This document shows positions 9,039 through 51,710 of a DNA stretch of 64,000 bases, one piece after another. Source of the DNA: Patescibacteria group bacterium. GTDB lineage: Bacteria > Patescibacteriota > Patescibacteriia > 2-01-FULL-39-33. Within the stretch, counting starts at the first letter, position 1; every line of letters begins with the position of its first letter. The translations under genes and the position numbers were made by a program. Under the pieces are notes generated by a model. It was not told the DNA's origin. It worked only from the letters and a program-made list of their open reading frames with translations, and did not search any database. The stretch is from the NCBI GenBank assembly GCA_041650895.1, contig JBAZKF010000001.1:428132-492131 (forward strand), in the 5' to 3' direction.

Positions 9039-10853
9039 TTAATAACCGCCACCATCACTGTAGCTGGAACTGGAACCGCTGTAACCGCCACCATCACTGT
9101 AGCTGGAACTGGAACCGCTGTAACCGCCACCATCACTGTAGCTGGAACTGGAACTGGAGCTGCTGGAACTGCTACCGCCCCAGTCGCTCCAACCGCTGCT
9201 GGAACCACTACTGGAACTACCGGAGTCAAAAGAAAACGATGACGTACTCTGGCTGTCCTGATAATCGTCGTAGGCCTTTTTGGCCGTCCGACCGGTGTCA
9301 TCAGCCAACTGATATGCTTGATCGGCATTAAAAATAGCCGATTCATAGCACCTGTTAGAGGCGTCACGACGAGCTTGGGCCAAACGGCTTTTAGCGGAAT
9401 CAAAATCCGACTGAGCCGACGAAGAATGACTGCCATAGTTTTCAATATCATCTTCGTTGTCATCAATCATTCGTTCAGCTCGACGTTCTTGATCCGGCCA
9501 AGCCAAGCGATAGGACTCCAAATCATCGACTAACCTCGTAAACTCCCGCAATAAACGATTGGCTTGAGACAAGCCATTGTCGCCACTGGTTATTTCCGAA
9601 TCAGCCAACCTGTAATCTTGATCCTCAGTCGCGATTCTTTGAGCTTCAGCCAAGTGTTCTTTGGCCCGCAAAAGATTATCGCCGGCCAATGTCAGATTGT
9701 CAGCCACTTGCGACCAAACGGTCTTCGCATGAAGATTAAGTTTGGCGCGAAGCTGTCGTGCCTGATTAAGGCCGTTTTGAGAAGCCATAATATTAGAAGC
9801 CAAAATCGCGCCACTATTCCTAACCTTCTCCGCCAGTATTAGTTGCCGATCAGCGCCTTTAATCGCTTCATTAGCCAAATCATACGCCTTAAGCGCACTA
9901 CTGAAGACCAAAAGGAGATCGTACTTGCCTTCTTCAACGATCACTAGTGAAGCCTCGGTGGCGACTGCAAACAACTGCTCCGCCTGACGCAAGTCGGCGT
10001 ATGACTGCTTAAGCGCCTTATCCGCTGTCAGCGGACCTTTGGCAACTAAGTTATCAAGATAGTTGTTAGCCGACGAAATACTGTTTTGAGCCGACGCCAA
10101 CTGTTCTCCCGCGCCAGTCTGCGCCTTCTTGTAGGAATCAAGATTATTCATCACCTTAAAGATGGAAGCATCAACAGAGCCGACAACCAAAAAACTGGCG
10201 CTCAATAGTTCACGCGCCTGCCTAGGGTCGCCTAACCCGGAGCCTTCAACCGGCAATAGACCGGAAATTATTTCCAGGTTGCCGGAGACCTTGTCAAGAC
10301 TGATTTTTGCCGCCGATAACTCTTCATTATTCAAAGCGACATACTTGGACAAATAGTCGCCGCCCTCGCTGGACAGCCTTTCCATGGCCAAAATATAATC
10401 GCGATTTTTTTCTGCCAAATCATTTTGTAGCTGGCTTAATTCCTGGCGAGCATCCTCGGCCAATTTTTCAATCGCCGACAGCTGCTCGTTGGCATTCTCT
10501 ATCGCCCGTTGCGATGCCTCAATAAGTTTTTCGGCTTCAACCGCCTGCGCCTTCTTTTGCTTGGCCTTGCCGGTCGCGTCAGCCTGCTTGATATCTTCCT
10601 CGGCCTGGCTGAGATTGATTCGCCCCGATTCAATTAAGTCGGAAATCGGGACTGAATATTCCGGTTTATACCAACTGGAAACAGCACCGAATTCAGACTG
10701 GAATCGCTCAATAGCCAAAGACTGTCCTATCGCCTCCGCCTTGACGTTGGCCAAACACTTGTCGGCCAAACGCTTAGGCGCGGACATGACCAGCCATAGG
10801 CCGGACGTCATCGCAATAACCAGCAGAATAATCAACACTTTTGACTTGTTCAT
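9039..10853 (-). CDS. Membrane-anchored long coiled-coil protein with a Ser/Gly/Tyr-rich repetitive C-terminus
   Basis: N-terminal TM segment, about 450 aa of heptad-like sequence, and a C-terminus SSSYSDGGGYSGSSSSYSDGGGY encoded by tandem 39-bp repeats. Confidence 0.55.
   Translation of the reverse strand: MNKSKVLIILLVIAMTSGLWLVMSAPKRLADKCLANVKAEAIGQSLAIERFQSEFGAVSSWYKPEYSVPISDLIESGRINLSQAEEDIKQADATGKAKQKKAQAVEAEKLIEASQRAIENANEQLSAIEKLAEDARQELSQLQNDLAEKNRDYILAMERLSSEGGDYLSKYVALNNEELSAAKISLDKVSGNLEIISGLLPVEGSGLGDPRQARELLSASFLVVGSVDASIFKVMNNLDSYKKAQTGAGEQLASAQNSISSANNYLDNLVAKGPLTADKALKQSYADLRQAEQLFAVATEASLVIVEEGKYDLLLVFSSALKAYDLANEAIKGADRQLILAEKVRNSGAILASNIMASQNGLNQARQLRAKLNLHAKTVWSQVADNLTLAGDNLLRAKEHLAEAQRIATEDQDYRLADSEITSGDNGLSQANRLLREFTRLVDDLESYRLAWPDQERRAERMIDDNEDDIENYGSHSSSAQSDFDSAKSRLAQARRDASNRCYESAIFNADQAYQLADDTGRTAKKAYDDYQDSQSTSSFSFDSGSSSSGSSSGWSDWGGSSSSSSSSSSSYSDGGGYSGSSSSYSDGGGYSGSSSSYSDGGGY
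9044..9160. repeat. Three tandem copies of a 39-bp unit (accgccaccatcactgtagctggaactggaaccgctgta) inside the 3' end of the 604-aa gene
   Basis: Perfect direct repeats read directly from the sequence. They encode SSSSYSDGGGYSG units on the minus strand. Confidence 0.9.
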
Positions 10854-12183: not shown

Positions 12184-12232
12184 ATTGATCTTGATTTTTT
12201 TAGATAACAGTGATAAAATATTGAAAGATTTC

Positions 12233-12375: not shown

Positions 12376-12427
12376 GCACCCATGGTGAAATGGATATCAC
12401 GACTGGCTTCGGACCAGTTATTGGGGG
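12376..12427 (+). pseudogene. Orphan 5' fragment (52 nt) of tRNA-Arg(TCG), identical to 12609-12660
   Basis: Exact direct duplication of the acceptor 5' strand through the 5' strand of the T-stem. No 3' half follows. Confidence 0.8.
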
Positions 12428-12608
12428 TCGCGAAGCGACAGGATAGCAATGAACCGCGAGTTATGTCGGAAGACATAACGAGCGAGTGAATGCCGCCGAG
12501 GCGCCGGTGGCGCGTCGGCGCTATCCCTGGACAACGAATTGTTTCGTTTTCCGACGAAACAATGAGGCGGAAAGAACCGCCAATGACAGTATATAAATCA
12601 AAACTTAA
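12428..12608 (+). ncRNA. GC-rich structured insert between the tRNA-Arg fragment and the intact tRNA-Arg. Function unknown.
   Basis: Multiple hairpins with GNRA-type loops (ttatgtcGGAAgacataa; ggcggAAAGAAccgcc; ttgtttcgTTTTCcgacgaaacaa). No ORF. Shares the CCCTGGACAA core with the insert at 51411-51532. Confidence 0.4.
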
Positions 12609-12680
12609 GCACCCATGGTGAAATGGATATCACGACTGGCTTCGGACCAGTTATTGGGGGTTCGAATCCCTCTGGGTGCA
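12609..12680 (+). tRNA. tRNA-Arg (anticodon TCG)
   Basis: Acceptor GCACCCA/TGGGTGC, anticodon stem ACTGG/CCAGT, loop CTTCGGA, T-loop TTCGAAT. Confidence 0.8.
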
Positions 12681-12693
12681 TAATAAACAAAAA

Positions 12694-12726
12694 AACAGAA
12701 ATCATAACGATTTCTGTTTTTTTTTG
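12694..12726 (+). terminator. Rho-independent terminator (aacagaaatc-ataac-gatttctgtt + T-run)
   Basis: Perfect 10-bp stem followed by 8 T. A near-identical copy lies at 13457-13484. Confidence 0.7.
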
Positions 12727-14241: not shown

Positions 14242-15141
14242 ATGGCTACTTTTTGGATTATTCTTGTCATTTTTGTCTTGATCGTCCTGGCTCTGGCTTC
14301 AGTATTCACTGTCCAACAGCAGAGCGTGGCCGTCATCCAAAGATTCGGCAAGTTCAAAAAAATGTCCTCTTCCGGACTTAACTTCCGCATCCCCCTGATT
14401 GACCACATCGCCGGACACATCGGCCTGCGTATCAATCAGCTGGACGTTAAAATCGAGACCAAAACTGAAGACAATGTTTTTGTCCACGTCACTGTTTCCG
14501 TCCAATATCAGGTCTTGCTGGAAAAACTGTATGACGCTTTTTATAAATTAATAAACCCCAAAGAACAAATATCTTCTTACGTCTTTGATATTGTTCGCGC
14601 TCAGGTTCCAAAACTGAAATTAGACAATGTTTTTGAAAATAAAGACGAGATCGCCAATGCCGTTAACACCGAGTTATCGCAAGCCATGTCCGACTTCGGT
14701 TACCAAATCATTAAATCTTTGGTTACCGATATTGAGCCGGACGCCCAGGTCAAAGCGGCCATGAACGAAATTAACGCCGCTCAGCGCCTGCGCGTTGCCG
14801 CCCAAGAAAAAGGCGAAGCAGAAAAAATTTTAATGGTAAAAAAAGCGGAAGCCGAATCGGAAAGCAAAAAACTGCAAGGTGAAGGCATCGCCAATCAGCG
14901 TCGTGCTATCATTAACGGCCTTAAAGAATCAGTTGACGACTTTCAAAAATCAATCAAGGGTTCAACCGCTCATGACGTTATGAACTTGGTTATGGTTACC
15001 CAATATTTTGACACTCTCAAAGACATCGGCGCTTCTTCCAAAGCCAGCGCCGTGTTTATACCCCATTCTCCGGGAGCGGTCGCCGACTTGACAGCTCAAA
15101 TCCGCGATGCCCTGTTGCAAGCTGATGGAGCCAAGCAATAA
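14242..15141 (+). CDS. SPFH/band-7 (stomatin/prohibitin-like) membrane protein
   Basis: N-terminal TM segment, then QQSVAVIQRFGKF...GLNFRIPLID, typical of band-7 proteins, with a coiled-coil C-terminus. Confidence 0.8.
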   Translation: MATFWIILVIFVLIVLALASVFTVQQQSVAVIQRFGKFKKMSSSGLNFRIPLIDHIAGHIGLRINQLDVKIETKTEDNVFVHVTVSVQYQVLLEKLYDAFYKLINPKEQISSYVFDIVRAQVPKLKLDNVFENKDEIANAVNTELSQAMSDFGYQIIKSLVTDIEPDAQVKAAMNEINAAQRLRVAAQEKGEAEKILMVKKAEAESESKKLQGEGIANQRRAIINGLKESVDDFQKSIKGSTAHDVMNLVMVTQYFDTLKDIGASSKASAVFIPHSPGAVADLTAQIRDALLQADGAKQ

Positions 15142-33653: not shown

Positions 33654-33826
33654 TACTCCGGCTTATGGGAGTATTTTTAATTTCTGGGTCACGACCGTGA
33701 TTTGATCATAGAAATACTGAGCGATCCAGAGGAAATAAGGTTAATTAAAAAGAAGTTGGAGAGAATTAATGAATTGGTTCCTTTTTTATAATATGGCATA
33801 GCTCAACTTGATGACTATACCATATT
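33654..33826 (+). repeat. Fic-associated module copy R1: hairpin plus T-run (33654-33678), peptide-coding-like repeat (33681-33791), and the palindrome AATATGGCATAG-N13-CTATACCATATT (33790-33826)
   Basis: Shared with 34964-35084 and 39184-39373. See findings. Confidence 0.6.
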
Positions 33827-34963: not shown

Positions 34964-35084
34964 AGATGCAATAAATGCATCTTTTTTAAATCTGGGTCAC
35001 GACCGTGATTTGCTCATAGAAATCCTATCGAATCCGGAGGAGATTGGCTTAATTAAGCGGAAGTTGGAGAGAATTAAAGAATAA
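34964..35084 (+). repeat. Fic-associated module copy R2: hairpin plus T-run and the peptide-coding-like repeat. No palindrome.
   Basis: About 85% nt identity to R1 over about 90 bp. Confidence 0.6.
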
Positions 35085-35144
35085 GTACCGATTTAAAGTC
35101 TCAACAAAACGGGTAAAGCATGAAATTTATTCTCGAGATATTTA

Positions 35145-39183: not shown

Positions 39184-39373
39184 CATCCTAAGTAACTAGG
39201 ATGTTTTTAATTCTAACAAATTCCCATCTTGGGTCACGACTATGATTTGCTCATACAAATACTTAACGATCCGAAAGAGACAGGGCTGATTAAGCAAAAA
39301 CTCAGGAATATTAAGGATTTGCACAAAATTCCTTAATATGGTATAGTGTCATTAGTTAAACCATACCATATTA
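39184..39373 (+). repeat. Fic-associated module copy R3: hairpin plus T-run, the peptide-coding-like repeat (39217-39336), and the palindrome AATATGGTATAG-N15-CATACCATATT just upstream of the fic2 ATG
   Basis: Shared architecture with R1. Confidence 0.6.
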
Positions 39374-41132: not shown

Positions 41133-41209
41133 TGGGTGGATGACCGGATTTGAACCGGCAGCCGCTCGGACCACAACCGAGTGCTCTAACCAATTGAGCT
41201 ACACCCACC
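41133..41209 (-). tRNA. tRNA-His (anticodon GTG) with the extra G(-1)
   Basis: Reverse complement G-GTGGGTG...anticodon stem CTCGG/CCGAG, loop TTGTGGT...CATCCACC. Confidence 0.75.
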
Positions 41210-41240
41210 ATTAATTTTAAGCAAGAACATCCTCTTCCAA

Positions 41241-41312
41241 TGCCCTCGACAGGATTCGAACCTGTATTAAAGGATCCGGAATCCTTCGTTCTATCCATTG
41301 AACTACGAGGAC
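41241..41312 (-). tRNA. tRNA-Arg (anticodon CCG)
   Basis: Reverse complement GTCCTCG...anticodon stem AAGGA/TCCTT, loop TTCCGGA...CGAGGGC. Confidence 0.75.
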
Positions 41313-41336
41313 CAAAAAAATAATTCAACTTTGCAG

Positions 41337-41409
41337 TGTCCGCGGCAAGAATCGAACTTGCGACCAATAGCTTAGAAGGCTACTGCTCTATCCACTGAGC
41401 TACGCGGAC
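41337..41409 (-). tRNA. tRNA-Arg (anticodon TCT)
   Basis: Reverse complement GTCCGCG...anticodon stem GTAGC/GCTAT, loop CTTCTAA...CGCGGAC. Confidence 0.75.
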
Positions 41410-50059: not shown

Positions 50060-50522
50060 GGTTCTTCTCCTACCGATCGGCTTAGCCGTCGGCTTTCTAC
50101 TCCTTGTTCAGGAGTTCCTATTCCCCTTAATCAGGGGGATGCGAATCGGCGGGAATTACAGATTCCAGCCGAATTGTGAATGATCTTATGTTTCCATTAC
50201 CTCTTATCGCTAATATACCATTATAGCATACCAATAAAATTTTGTCAAGGGGTTTGTCCACAAGGATAACTCTATTATATCTTATATTAGCTAAATTTAA
50301 ACAAGATAAAATGCATCATATCTAAAATAAGCCAAAATTCAAAAATAACACCTATAAATCGCTTGACTGATTTTTTAATCAAAAAAAATTCAAAATCAAG
50401 AAGTTAAAATAAAAAAAGAAAAATCATAATTCATGTTTCAAAAACCTGAATTTCCTGATTTTATCCCCAATTAATTTACTGTAAATTTAAACAAAAAACA
50501 GCTATTTTGAACACATCAGCTA

Positions 50523-51167: not shown

Positions 51168-51325
51168 CCTAACTCCGCCAATCGGCGAATAGAGATAAAA
51201 CACCTCCAAGCGGGGGTGTTTTATCGTAGCGACACGAGTTGAAATCCAGTCGATAATTTGTTATGCTACTTATACAATAATTTATTCAAACTAATGGATT
51301 CCTGCCTAAGCAGGAACAACCAGAT

Positions 51326-51397
51326 GGTCTGGTAGCCAAGTGGTAAGGCGACGGTCTGCAAAACCGTTATTCGGGGGTTCGATCCCCCCCCAGACCT
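51326..51397 (+). tRNA. tRNA-Cys (anticodon GCA)
   Basis: Acceptor GGTCTGG/CCAGACC, anticodon stem ACGGT/ACCGT, loop CTGCAAA, T-arm GGGGGTTCGATCCCCC. Confidence 0.8.
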
Positions 51398-51410
51398 TTT
51401 TTAAATTTTT

Positions 51411-51532
51411 GGGGGATCGAACTGGTTGGCAGTAAGGCCAGCGCGAGAGCGCGTAGCCGAAGGCCGATAGGCGCGACCATGGGAGCGCCTAGCGCCAACC
51501 CTGGACAAGCATCGCGAGAGCGATGCGCGAAA
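51411..51532 (+). ncRNA. GC-rich structured insert flanked by a 29-nt direct repeat of the tRNA-Cys 3' end (51382-51410 = 51533-51561)
   Basis: Hairpins cgcgAGAGcgcg, ggcgcGACCATGGGAgcgcc, gcatcgcGAGAgcgatgc. Contains CCCTGGACAA, as does the 12428-12608 insert. Confidence 0.4.
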
Positions 51533-51710
51533 ATCCCCCCCCAGACCTTTTTTAAATTTTTAGACTTTTTAGACCGCCCGTTTGCCAGACGGTCTTTTAT
51601 TGACAAAATTTAACGGTTATGATAGAATGACTTGTTAAGTTCTTTAACAATCAAATCACTGATAATCATTGGCGACAATAAACAACTGGGCTTAGCCCAA
51701 GGAGAAAACA

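What the first reader, a model, noticed from the sequence alone, without database searches (positions are those of the whole stretch)
51382..51561. tRNA-Cys(GCA) 3' end duplicated 122 nt downstream around a second GC-rich structured insert sharing the CCCTGGACAA motif with the tRNA-Arg insert
29 nt (atcccccccc agacc tttttt aaattttt) covering the last 15 nt of tRNA-Cys plus 14 nt of trailer recur at 51533-51561, which is the classic att-like signature of integration into a tRNA 3' end. The 122-nt cargo is again GC-rich, hairpin-dense and ORF-free. It contains gcgccaaCCCTGGACAAgc-hairpin, and the tRNA-Arg insert contains gcgctatCCCTGGACAAcg-hairpin. Two unrelated tRNA genes 39 kb apart carrying related miniature inserts suggest a family of small tRNA-associated elements or RNAs rather than chance.
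Basis: seen in the sequence. Interest (0 to 1): 0.7.

Follow-up and report, generated by a model that had tools for sequence, protein, structure and literature searches.

The report
Structured RNA module nested in tRNA-gene fragments
The GC-rich insert after tRNA-Cys is one copy of an undescribed family of ~100-nt folded RNA modules in candidate-phyla-radiation bacteria; the copies usually sit next to tRNA genes, wrapped in pieces of the neighbouring tRNA, and differ in presence between close relatives.

Summary
A perfect 29-nt repeat (51382-51410 / 51533-51561) brackets a 122-nt, 66% GC, ORF-free insert after tRNA-Cys. The tRNA-Arg(TCG) insert at 12429-12608 is its homologue.

The two share much more than a 10-mer. 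Both have the same three-way-junction fold: P1 closes P2 and P3, followed by CUGGACAA and a hairpin. A pattern scan, a covariance model and loci from relatives gave about 20 copies from roughly ten Patescibacteria (Ca. Buchananbacteria-like) genomes. In the 18-copy alignment, 90% of cells pair (29-39% when the partners are slid) and 18 of 19 pairs show compensatory changes. Rfam 15 has no match.

Nearly every copy is flanked by a partial copy of the adjacent tRNA. The partial copy is either a 5' part broken in the D, variable or T loop, or, as at Cys, the A58-to-3'-end part. In the Cys-type copies the 10-13 nt before P1 are exactly antisense to the T arm of the upstream tRNA.

The module is 97% conserved where neutral sites are 62-70% conserved. 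Yet copies are gained, lost or truncated between close relatives. No integrase gene was found in the window.

Best reading: a small non-autonomous, recombination-propagated, tRNA-operon-borne structured RNA element whose molecular role is unknown. It is not prophage debris.

The parts
51239..51278 (+). Promoter-like sites upstream of tRNA-Cys (TTGAAA-17-TATGCT and TCGATA-17-TACAAT)
   Evidence: Consensus scan. No promoter-like site lies between the tRNA and the module.
51326..51397 (+). Intact tRNA-Cys(GCA). Its T arm is GGGGG-TTCGATC-CCCCC.
   Evidence: ARAGORN. Rfam tRNA, 69.3 bits.
51382..51410 (+). Direct repeat copy 1: tRNA-Cys from A58 to its 3' end, plus 13 nt of trailer
   Evidence: the repeat finder D1, 29 nt, 100% identity.
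51411..51422 (+). GGGGGATCGAAC, perfect antisense of T-arm bases 51377-51388. Its first 7 nt also pair with 51533-51539, forming closing stem P0.
   Evidence: Inverted repeat I1, 12/12. 0 of 500 shuffles reach this match. P0 forms in the minimum-free-energy fold.
51424..51430 (+). P1 5' strand, GGTTGGC
   Evidence: Covarying helix 1; coordinates.
51431..51467 (+). P2 arm: AGUAA/GAA purine-rich internal loop, then the GCGC-GAGA-GCGC hairpin with a GNRA loop
   Evidence: Alignments A3 and A4, helix 2.
51468..51491 (+). P3 hairpin UAGGCGC-GACCAUGGGA-GCGCCUA. The loop motif GACCAnnnGGA is shared with the L137 Gly, L137 Lys, L142 Val and L148 Val copies.
   Evidence: Helix 3; 7 of 7 pairs show changes on both sides.
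51494..51500 (+). P1 3' strand, GCCAACC
51501..51508 (+). Conserved single-stranded motif CUGGACAA. The family consensus is C-N-GG-R-Y-A-(G)-A-A-C.
51509..51526 (+). P4 hairpin GCAUCGC-GAGA-GCGAUGC
   Evidence: Folds. The equivalent hairpin in other copies has different stems.
51527..51532 (+). Linker GCGAAA. Other copies have GAGGCGGAA at this position.
   Evidence: Sequence comparison.
51533..51561 (+). Direct repeat copy 2: a tRNA-Cys 3' fragment (A58 to discriminator, 51533-51548) plus a trailer copy. It supplies the P0 3' strand.
   Evidence: D1. The trailer TTTTTTAAATTTTT(T)AGA is also conserved at this position in relative L122.
51578..51600 (+). Terminator-like hairpin plus T run that closes the tRNA-Cys/module unit. 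The next promoter lies at 51600-51628.
12376..12428 (+). Partial 5' copy of tRNA-Arg(TCG): bases 1-54, ending in the T loop
   Evidence: D3; weak Rfam tRNA hit over 12376-12429, 26.6 bits; coordinates.
12429..12608 (+). Sister copy of the module. Pa hairpin 12427-12439; P1 12441-12447 with 12520-12526; P2 12460-12479; P3 12492-12519; CUGGACAA 12527-12534; P4 12538-12563; GGCGG hairpin 12566-12581; AT-rich spacer.
   Evidence: Fold z-score -6.5. cmsearch 81.9 bits. 97% identity to the L137 orthologue.
12609..12680 (+). Intact tRNA-Arg(TCG). It shares the promoter at 12191-12219 and the terminator at 12689-12723 with tRNA-Lys and the module.

Best explanation
The insert is one copy of a family of about 100-nt structured RNA modules. 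Each module is a three-way junction (P1 closing P2 and P3), followed by a C-N-GGACAA motif and a hairpin P4. The modules lie in tRNA operons of Ca. Buchananbacteria-like Patescibacteria, embedded in a partial second copy of the neighbouring tRNA.

At tRNA-Cys the layout is as follows:
- The 29-nt 'repeat' is the A58-to-3'-end piece, plus trailer, of that second copy.
- The 12 nt in front of the module are antisense to the T arm.
- Together these two pieces form a closing stem (P0) around the module.

Shown:
- The family exists and its fold covaries.
- It lies on the tRNA strand, inside the same predicted promoter-terminator unit.
- It is under purifying selection.
- Copies sit at different tRNAs, and at different tRNA loops, in close relatives, and precise empty sites exist.
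- No recombinase was found in the window.

Inferred:
- The unit is a non-autonomous insertional element of tRNA genes.
- The tRNA-derived flanks serve as homology arms. A small circle of module plus one tRNA segment would insert, and be lost, by single-crossover (Campbell-type) recombination. This would create and remove the direct repeats. Conserved tRNA boxes would allow rare hops to new tRNA genes.
- The RNA is made as part of the tRNA precursor and released when the flanking tRNA is processed.
- Its conserved fold and its T-arm-complementary 5' segment carry out a still unknown RNA-level activity, either for its own spread or for the host.
For: Family and fold:
- Three metagenome copies have complementary P1 stems, among 7 chance hits.
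- On 11 sequences, 87% of cells pair against 33-40% when the partners are slid, and 16 of 19 pairs are compensatory.
- On 18 sequences, 90.4% of cells pair, 18 of 19 pairs are compensatory, and the covariation score is 0.711 against 0.264 (0 of 500 shuffles reach it).
- True copies score 42-93 bits in cmsearch; the pattern-selected chance hits score 13-20 bits.

Strand:
- GNRA loops lie on the tRNA strand, and there are 10 G-U cells against 4 A-C cells.

Transcription unit:
- Promoter and terminator scans place the module in the same unit as the tRNA.

Selection (window versus L137):
- Module 97% identical; P4 94%.
- Spacers 62-70% identical; third codon positions of the adjacent gene 64%.

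Turnover between close relatives:
- L137 has extra copies at tRNA-Lys and tRNA-Gly, where the window has exact empty sites.
- L139 lacks the Arg copy but has a different, D-loop type copy at tRNA-Gly.
- L122 has only the first 38 nt of the Cys copy.
- L148 has copies after 3 of 5 neighbouring tRNAs.

tRNA-derived flanks:
- Partial tRNA copies flank the modules.
- In 6 of 6 T-loop, 3'-type copies, 10-13 nt are antisense to the upstream tRNA's T arm.

No recombinase:
- No integrase, reverse transcriptase or transposase domain was found in the window.
Against: - No excised circle, transcript or recombination intermediate was observed. Mobility is inferred only from presence/absence between genomes. 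Repeat-mediated loss alone could explain the empty sites.
- Strong purifying selection, and free-standing copies with their own terminator and no intact tRNA upstream (L130, L132, L151), fit a host-useful small RNA at least as well as a selfish element.
- How the module reaches a new tRNA, and why its 5' segment is exactly antisense to the local T arm, are not explained by simple homologous recombination.
- One copy lies next to a large serine recombinase gene (L132), so mobilisation in trans by a recombinase is not excluded.
- Only about 0.4 Mb of related sequence was searched with the model.
Confidence: 0.45

Rival explanations
1. The module is a host-selected small RNA, or a cis-acting regulator of tRNA maturation. 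The segment antisense to the T arm can pair either with the upstream tRNA, which would block its folding and processing, or with the downstream tRNA fragment (P0, a decoy). The module would decide which pairing forms. The tRNA fragments would then be functional parts of a switch, not recombination scars.
For: - The module is 97% identical to its L137 orthologue, against 62-70% for the spacers and 64% for third codon positions.
- 10-13 nt are perfectly antisense to the T arm of the tRNA immediately upstream in 6 of 6 T-loop 3'-type copies.
- An alternative P0 pairing with the fragment exists.
- The module lies in the same transcription unit as the tRNA.
- Free-standing copies are conserved with compensatory stem changes and their own terminator (L130, L132, L151).
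- tRNA-Gly(GCC) carries a copy in 6 of 9 related genomes.
Against: - The tRNA served, the loop used and the side (5' or 3') all differ between close relatives. The Cys copy is truncated in L122 and the Arg copy is absent in L139. That is unusual for a dedicated regulator.
- A tRNA folds before the antisense segment is transcribed, so invasion in cis is kinetically doubtful (inference).
- The 5'-type copies have only a short local hairpin in place of the long antisense segment.
Confidence: 0.3
2. The module is an intron-like or ribozyme-type mobile RNA. It inserts at the RNA level into exposed tRNA loops (D 19/20, variable 46/47, T 54-58), using the antisense segment as a guide helix, as group I introns use an internal guide sequence. 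It is then fixed in DNA through a cDNA that recombines beside the tRNA gene.
For: - All insertion points lie in the loops at the tRNA elbow or core surface.
- The guide-like segment directly 5' of P1 is complementary to sequence on both sides of the T-loop junction.
- The tRNA-Lys pseudo-copy in L137 is a nearly full pre-tRNA, running from about -10 into the trailer, with a clean internal insertion.
- 4 of 10 3' fragments are followed by CCA where the adjacent intact gene lacks it.
- Patescibacteria are rich in tRNA introns (PMC13011429).
Against: - No reverse transcriptase was found in the window.
- About 100 nt is far below the size of known self-splicing introns, and no Rfam ribozyme or intron model matches even at E up to 10.
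- The D-loop and variable-loop copies lack a convincing guide match.
- 7 of 52 intact tRNA genes in these genomes encode CCA, so the CCA signal is only suggestive.
- The 5' copies include leader DNA, which points to DNA or to unprocessed precursors.
Confidence: 0.12
3. The inserts are decayed remnants (attL/attR scars) of two unrelated large prophages or genomic islands that once integrated into tRNA-Cys and tRNA-Arg.
For: - Direct repeats made of a tRNA segment are the textbook result of island integration (PMC9897764).
- The Cys repeat starts in the T loop.
- One related copy abuts a large serine recombinase gene (L132).
Against: - The 'remnants' are homologous to each other and to about 18 other copies, with conserved structure and compensatory changes.
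- They are far better conserved than neutral DNA.
- No island genes or integrase lie nearby.
- 5'-part duplications broken in D and variable loops are not what integrases leave.
Confidence: 0.05
4. The similarity between the two inserts is chance, or both are generic GC-rich repetitive extragenic palindromes.
For: With up to 1 mismatch, the 10-mer alone is no more frequent than in shuffles.
Against: - The extended descriptor is expected 0.00 times in shuffles and is found twice.
- The covariance model separates true copies (42-93 bits) from pattern-selected chance hits (13-20 bits).
- Every true copy except L130 lies next to a tRNA or a tRNA fragment.
Confidence: 0.01

Closest known systems
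Partial tRNA-gene duplications (attL/attR) left by integrative elements at the T-loop sublocation
   Same: - A direct repeat consisting of a tRNA segment brackets foreign DNA next to an intact tRNA.
- At tRNA-Cys the repeat runs from the T loop to the 3' end and into the trailer (general pattern in PMC9897764).
   Different: - The cargo is 100-190 nt rather than 9-23 kb or more, and encodes no integrase.
- The cargo is a conserved, covarying RNA fold.
- Many copies duplicate the 5' part of the tRNA, broken in the D, variable or T loop.
- An antisense T-arm segment precedes the module.
tRNA-linked repeats and rtT RNA of the E. coli tyrT operon (Rfam RF00391; recalled from memory)
   Same: Short non-coding units that include the 3' end of a tRNA are repeated downstream of the tRNA gene. 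They are co-transcribed and released by tRNA processing.
   Different: - Rfam gave no hit at E up to 10.
- The fold, host lineage and size all differ.
- The E. coli repeats are not known as a multi-tRNA family with covarying structure.
Archaeal tRNA introns at non-canonical positions, and their transposition among tRNA genes (Thermoproteales; recalled from memory)
   Same: Insertions in the D, variable and T loops of tRNA genes, with related inserts found in different tRNA genes of one genome.
   Different: - Here the interrupted copy is a truncated pseudo-copy beside an intact gene, not a spliced functional gene.
- The host is bacterial.
- No bulge-helix-bulge motif was identified.
- The inserts carry a conserved three-way junction.
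Group I introns in Patescibacteria tRNA genes (PMC13011429)
   Same: Same phylum; a structured RNA interrupting tRNA sequence; a 5' segment complementary to the flanking tRNA, reminiscent of an internal guide sequence.
   Different: - Those introns sit in the anticodon loop (35/36 and neighbouring positions) and match the Rfam group I model.
- Here there is no group I match, the core is about 100 nt, the sites are in the T, D and variable loops, and an intact tRNA copy lies alongside.
tmRNA tRNA-like domain (recalled from memory)
   Same: The motif order UUCGA(A)C - long helix - (CU)GGAC - hairpin - acceptor 3' strand resembles the tmRNA order GGAUUCGAC - P2 ... P2' - GGAC - T arm - acceptor.
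   Different: - No acceptor 5' strand, no tag reading frame and no true T arm.
- Several copies per genome.
- ARAGORN finds no tmRNA, and the Rfam permuted-tmRNA model gives only a 13-bit, E = 1.6 hit that is mostly the tRNA T arm.

Membership tests
Integrase-borne genomic island or prophage att remnant | Direct repeats made of the tRNA 3' segment, starting in the anticodon or T loop | tested here: met
   The 29-nt repeat starts at T-loop A58. The same holds for L144 Gly, L142 Val, L148 Val and L150 Ser.
Integrase-borne genomic island or prophage att remnant | An integrase gene, or its remnant, and island cargo between the repeats or nearby | tested here: not met
   - Only 122 nt lie between the repeats, with no ORF of 100 aa or more.
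- No recombinase domain was found in the scanned window ORFs.
- One unrelated locus (L132) has an adjacent serine recombinase gene.
Integrase-borne genomic island or prophage att remnant | The remnant evolves neutrally and is unrelated to remnants at other tRNAs | tested here: not met
   97% identity against 62-70% for neutral sites. The copy is homologous to the other family copies, with covariation.
Any Rfam 15 family (including group I intron, tmRNA, rtT, hammerhead and other small ribozymes, T-box) | A covariance-model match at the gathering score, or even at E up to 10 | tested here: not met
   Only tRNA models match. Nothing overlaps the modules apart from scattered sub-threshold hits, none recurring at the same family across copies.
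Group I intron in a tRNA gene | Insertion in the anticodon loop of the only functional gene copy; a catalytic core of about 200 nt or more | tested here: not met
   The sites are in the T, variable and D loops of truncated copies beside an intact gene, and the core is about 76-90 nt.
Archaeal-type (bulge-helix-bulge) tRNA intron | A bulge-helix-bulge motif at both junctions, and a splicing endonuclease in the host | tested here: inconclusive
   Inspection of the junctions by eye showed no clear motif. The endonuclease was not searched for. The interrupted copies are incomplete tRNAs.
MITE, REP or BIME-type repeat | Conserved terminal inverted repeats or palindromic units, short fixed target duplications, and scattered intergenic locations | tested here: not met
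   - The flanking repeats are 17-56 nt of tRNA sequence and differ with each tRNA.
- Every copy except L130 lies at a tRNA gene or a tRNA fragment.
Structured non-coding RNA family (generic criterion) | A conserved secondary structure supported by compensatory changes across many non-identical copies | tested here: met
   18 copies, 90.4% of cells paired, 18 of 19 pairs with changes on both sides, and slid controls at 29-39%.
Structured non-coding RNA family (generic criterion) | Evidence that the region is transcribed | not testable with these tools
   Only predicted promoter and terminator positions and strand-specific loop and G-U signals are available.

The most novel reading that the evidence does not exclude
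The family may be a new kind of RNA-structured mobile element, or a natural 'tRNA-scaffolded' RNA. Under this reading the roughly 100-nt three-way-junction module uses a guide segment complementary to the T arm to target, or act on, tRNAs. It installs itself in exposed tRNA loops and spreads among tRNA genes with no protein of its own, possibly through an RNA intermediate. If so, it would be either a bacterial counterpart of mobile archaeal tRNA introns with its own catalytic or guide RNA, or a new class of cis/trans regulator of tRNA maturation in genome-reduced CPR bacteria.
Probability: 0.3. Interest if true: 0.9.

Novelty: new variant of a known kind. Interest (0 to 1): 0.72.

Why it matters
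Patescibacteria have genomes of about 1 Mb with very little spare DNA. Even so, these genomes carry several copies of a GC-rich, structurally conserved RNA module wrapped in pieces of tRNA genes, and the copies turn over quickly between close relatives.

If the module is mobile, it shows a protein-free way of colonising tRNA genes. It would also explain the partial tRNA genes that can confuse annotation. If it is a host RNA, it is an abundant, unannotated small RNA class linked to tRNA biogenesis in a lineage whose RNA biology is largely unknown.

Either way it gives a concrete, testable RNA family. A covariance model and about 20 seed sequences are already available for Rfam-style curation, transcriptome mapping and biochemical tests.

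Tried and rejected
1. A 14-base pattern (GCGCNNNCCCTGGACAA) on viral contigs gave only chance hits: 120 loci and no complementary P1 apart from one in GC-rich coding DNA. The longer descriptor on viral contigs gave 3 chance hits. There is no sign of phage carriage.

2. Rfam at the gathering score, and at E up to 10, was run on four regions. Nothing overlapped the modules apart from scattered sub-threshold hits to unrelated families, none recurring across copies.

3. A hammerhead-like reading of the GA-rich P2 arm was rejected because the invariant C3 and U4 are missing. A tmRNA-like reading was rejected for membership because there is no acceptor 5' strand, no tag reading frame and no T arm. 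An SRP-like reading of the GGAA hairpin was rejected because the sequence does not fit and the module is multi-copy.

4. An integrase, reverse transcriptase or transposase in the window was looked for and not found. Five Pfam scans covered 50 window ORFs, most of those of 150 aa or more.

5. CCA after the 3' fragments was considered as proof of an RNA intermediate. It occurs in 4 of 10 fragments, but 7 of 52 intact genes in these genomes encode CCA, so the signal is only suggestive.

6. L131, a pattern hit with a G-U-containing P1, scored only 13 bits with the model and was rejected as a member.

7. Reading the GGGGGATCGAAC segment as a sense T-arm half fits worse than the antisense reading at every discriminating position in the Cys, Gly, Val and Ser copies.

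The family could therefore not be scanned across reference genomes.
Full report
**1. Checking the observation**

ARAGORN and Rfam place tRNA-Cys(GCA) at 51326-51397. The 29-mer ATCCCCCCCCAGACCTTTTTTAAATTTTT occurs at 51382-51410 and, identically, at 51533-51561. It runs from T-loop A58 through the discriminator base and 13 nt of trailer.

The 122 nt between the repeats are 65.6% GC in a 43.4% GC window. No ORF of 100 aa or more was listed within them. An independent Logan assembly carries the same sequence base for base.

CCCTGGACAA occurs only at 12525-12534 and 51499-51508. The 10-mer alone is not statistically striking. The extended descriptor that covers both strands of the enclosing helix is: 2 hits against 0.00 expected.

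At tRNA-Arg(TCG) it is the first 53 nt of the tRNA that are duplicated. They lie at 12376-12428, upstream of a 180-nt insert and the intact gene at 12609-12680.

51411-51422 is the perfect reverse complement of T-arm bases 51377-51388 (I1).

**2. The two inserts share a fold**

Both inserts have the same parts in the same order:
- a 7-bp helix P1 (GGUUGGC/GCCAACC versus GGAUAGC/GCUAUCC, which are compensatory changes);
- P1 encloses two arms;
- CUGGACAA follows P1;
- a hairpin follows the motif.

The Arg insert folds far better than shuffled sequence (z = -6.5). The Cys insert with its flanks gives z = -3.9, and the outer stem forms.

**3. Finding more copies**

The organism is a Patescibacteria MAG, and the source contig is 957,791 bp. 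Its nearest reference relative is a Ca. Buchananbacteria MAG.

A structure-aware pattern scan of JGI metagenomes returned 10 loci. Three of them (L125, L130, L132) have a complementary P1 and the same internal layout. The other seven are chance hits.

I then fetched orthologous loci through the neighbouring glycosyltransferase and other proteins. Scanning these loci by eye, with a relaxed descriptor, for partial tRNA duplicates and with a covariance model gave further copies:
- L137, at tRNA-Arg, tRNA-Lys and tRNA-Gly;
- L139, at tRNA-Gly;
- L142, at tRNA-Gly and tRNA-Val;
- L144, at tRNA-Gly;
- L146/L147, between tRNA-Lys and tRNA-Arg;
- L148, at tRNA-Gly, tRNA-Leu and tRNA-Val;
- L149, at tRNA-Gly;
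- L150, at tRNA-Ser;
- L151;
- L153.

True copies score 42-93 bits. The chance hits that the pattern had pre-selected score 13-20 bits.

**4. Covariation**

| Alignment | Sequences | Cells paired | Slid controls | Pairs with changes on both sides | Covariation score (shuffled) |
|---|---|---|---|---|---|
| MAFFT (A3) | 11 | 87% | 33-40% | 16 of 19 | 0.698 (0.27; 0 of 500 shuffles reach it) |
| Model-based (A4) | 18 | 90.4% | 29-39% | 18 of 19 | 0.711 (0.264) |

Other structural points:
- The P2 arm carries conserved tandem purine-purine motifs (AGUGAGC opposite GCGAAC).
- P2 usually ends in a GNRA loop.
- The P3 loops fall into a few conserved classes, for example GACCAnnnGGA in the window Cys, L137 Gly and Lys, and L142 and L148 Val copies.
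- GNRA loops and 10 G-U cells against 4 A-C cells favour the tRNA strand as the RNA strand.

Rfam 15 has no matching family at the gathering score or at E up to 10. Three literature searches turned up no description. The nearest paper concerns group I introns in the anticodon loops of Patescibacteria tRNAs.

**5. Anatomy of the surroundings**

Copies come in two arrangements.

*5' type.* A partial 5' copy of the tRNA, then the module, then an AT-rich spacer, then the intact tRNA. The partial copy breaks at different points:
- in the T loop (window and L137 Arg);
- in the variable loop at 46/47 (L137 Gly and Lys);
- in the D loop after G19 (L139 and L142 Gly).

In L137 Lys, L139 Gly and L142 Gly the tRNA sequence resumes after the module. 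The module therefore sits inside a second, decaying tRNA copy.

*3' type.* This is the type of the finding. The order is:
- the intact tRNA;
- a spacer of 13-62 nt;
- a 10-13-nt segment exactly antisense to G52/53-C63/64 of that tRNA;
- the module;
- the GGACA(A/G)A motif;
- the P4 hairpin;
- a linker;
- a copy of the tRNA from A58 to its 3' end.

Examples are window Cys, L144 Gly, L142 Val, L148 Val, L148 Leu and L150 Ser. The antisense match is significant in 6 of 6 copies (0-2 of 500 shuffles reach it). Its first 6-7 nt also pair with the downstream fragment and close the element (P0).

L148 and L149 Gly are 3'-type copies whose fragment starts in the variable loop.

L130, L132 and L151 are free-standing:
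- no intact tRNA lies next to any of them;
- L132 and L151 keep tRNA-Ser-like 3' fragments;
- L151 has a terminator straight after its fragment.

**6. Dynamics and selection**

Several comparisons show turnover between close relatives:
- The window lacks the Lys and Gly copies present in L137, whose neighbouring protein is 90% identical. The window sites are exact empty sites.
- L139 (85% identical) lacks the Arg copy. It carries a different tRNA-Arg(TCG) sequence and has a D-loop type copy at tRNA-Gly.
- The same genome's Cys locus (L122) keeps only the first 38 nt of the module and has lost the 3' fragment.

Where the Arg copy is shared between the window and L137, identity varies sharply by segment:

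| Segment | Identity |
|---|---|
| Module | 97% |
| P4 region | 94% |
| Partial 5' tRNA copy | 89% |
| Flanking spacers | 62-70% |
| Third codon positions of the adjacent gene | 64% |

The fold is therefore under purifying selection. It is not decaying debris.

**7. Context**

Consensus scans put tRNA-Cys, the module and the fragment between one promoter-like region (51239-51278) and one terminator-like hairpin (51578-51600). They put tRNA-Lys, the partial Arg copy, the module and tRNA-Arg between 12191-12219 and 12689-12723.

No integrase, transposase or reverse transcriptase domain was found in the ORFs scanned across the 64-kb window. One related copy (L132) abuts the 3' end of a large serine recombinase gene that runs off the contig. 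This is a single case.

**8. Interpretation**

The data exclude chance. They also effectively exclude 'two unrelated prophage scars'.

They fit a small, non-autonomous element of tRNA operons. Its only cargo is a selected RNA fold. Its tRNA-derived flanks are the repeats created by single-crossover insertion of a module-plus-tRNA-segment unit, and those repeats also allow precise loss.

This is my best explanation (confidence about 0.45). The insertion chemistry is inferred, not shown.

A host-beneficial small RNA or cis switch for tRNA maturation is a serious rival (about 0.3). The antisense segment can pair either with the T arm or with the decoy fragment, and this reading is supported by the strong constraint and by the free-standing copies.

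An RNA-level, intron-like mechanism has lower probability (about 0.12). It is suggested by three things:
- the loop-only insertion sites;
- the guide-like segment;
- CCA after 4 of 10 fragments, against 7 of 52 intact genes that encode it.

It lacks any reverse transcriptase or ribozyme signature.

**9. Novelty**

Partial tRNA duplications next to inserts are well known for kb-sized integrative elements (PMC9897764). Several features here were not matched in Rfam 15 or in the three literature searches I ran:
- a roughly 100-nt covarying RNA module as the sole cargo;
- copies at many tRNAs and at three different loops;
- duplications of both the 5' and the 3' part of the tRNA;
- a T-arm antisense segment.

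I therefore class it as a new variant of a known kind. There is a substantial chance (about 0.3) that it represents something categorically new.

Noticed in passing
L139:11080-11370: Upstream of tRNA-Lys in the Buchananbacteria relative there is an array of short repeats (CTTTTGTCATTCCCGTCCC-like units) and GTCATTCCCGCGAAGGCGGGAATCCAGG hairpins. This is a different repeat family, and it is absent from the window at the orthologous place.
   Followed up: no
window:32000-44000: A low-GC block (33-39% against about 45% elsewhere) lies next to the tRNA-His/Arg/Arg cluster at 41134-41409. It encodes two Fic/DOC proteins, YibE/F, a ZIP transporter and GT4 glycosyltransferases. A 113-nt repeat family occurs at 33674-33786, 34982-35094 and 39219-39331. 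The relative L122 is about 3 kb shorter between tRNA-His and tRNA-Cys. This may be a genomic island.
   Followed up: partly
window:49571-50059 (- strand): A 162-aa ORF of 63-67% GC with a good ribosome-binding site sits in a 43% GC genome. It is followed by a 21-29% GC stretch (50200-50500). It has no Pfam match and looks like a foreign gene.
   Followed up: partly
window:12609-12680 vs L139:11500-11576: tRNA-Arg(TCG) of the window and of L137 is a 72-nt gene with an unusual D arm and no encoded CCA. The 85%-related genome has a conventional 77-nt gene with encoded CCA at the same position. The gene seems to have been replaced in one of the two lineages.
   Followed up: no
window:9043-9210: Three to four tandem 39-nt repeats lie inside the 604-aa ORF at 9039-10853 (- strand). 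This is a repetitive protein with no Pfam match.
   Followed up: no
L132:1-1344 and L130 vs L132 downstream of GGCGGAAAT: A large serine recombinase gene converges on the module and reads antisense through its tRNA-Ser-like fragment. L130 and L132 are identical up to T-loop position 60/61 of that fragment and then diverge completely, as if a site-specific crossover had occurred there.
   Followed up: partly
L142:13111-13184 and 14710-14785: Two tRNA-Ala(TGC) genes lie 1.5 kb apart, one without and one with encoded CCA. They flank an aspartate-semialdehyde dehydrogenase gene.
   Followed up: no
L121 (start), L125, L130, L153 (contig ends): Several independent short-read contigs end within or next to a module or its tRNA. 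This suggests that the elements, or population variants with and without them, break assemblies.
   Followed up: no
L146:8204-8569 / L147:4378-4743: A bAvd / 23S-rRNA-IVS-protein family gene (a typical accessory gene of diversity-generating retroelements) lies about 4 kb from a module-bearing tRNA cluster. No reverse transcriptase was seen in the fetched stretch.
   Followed up: no
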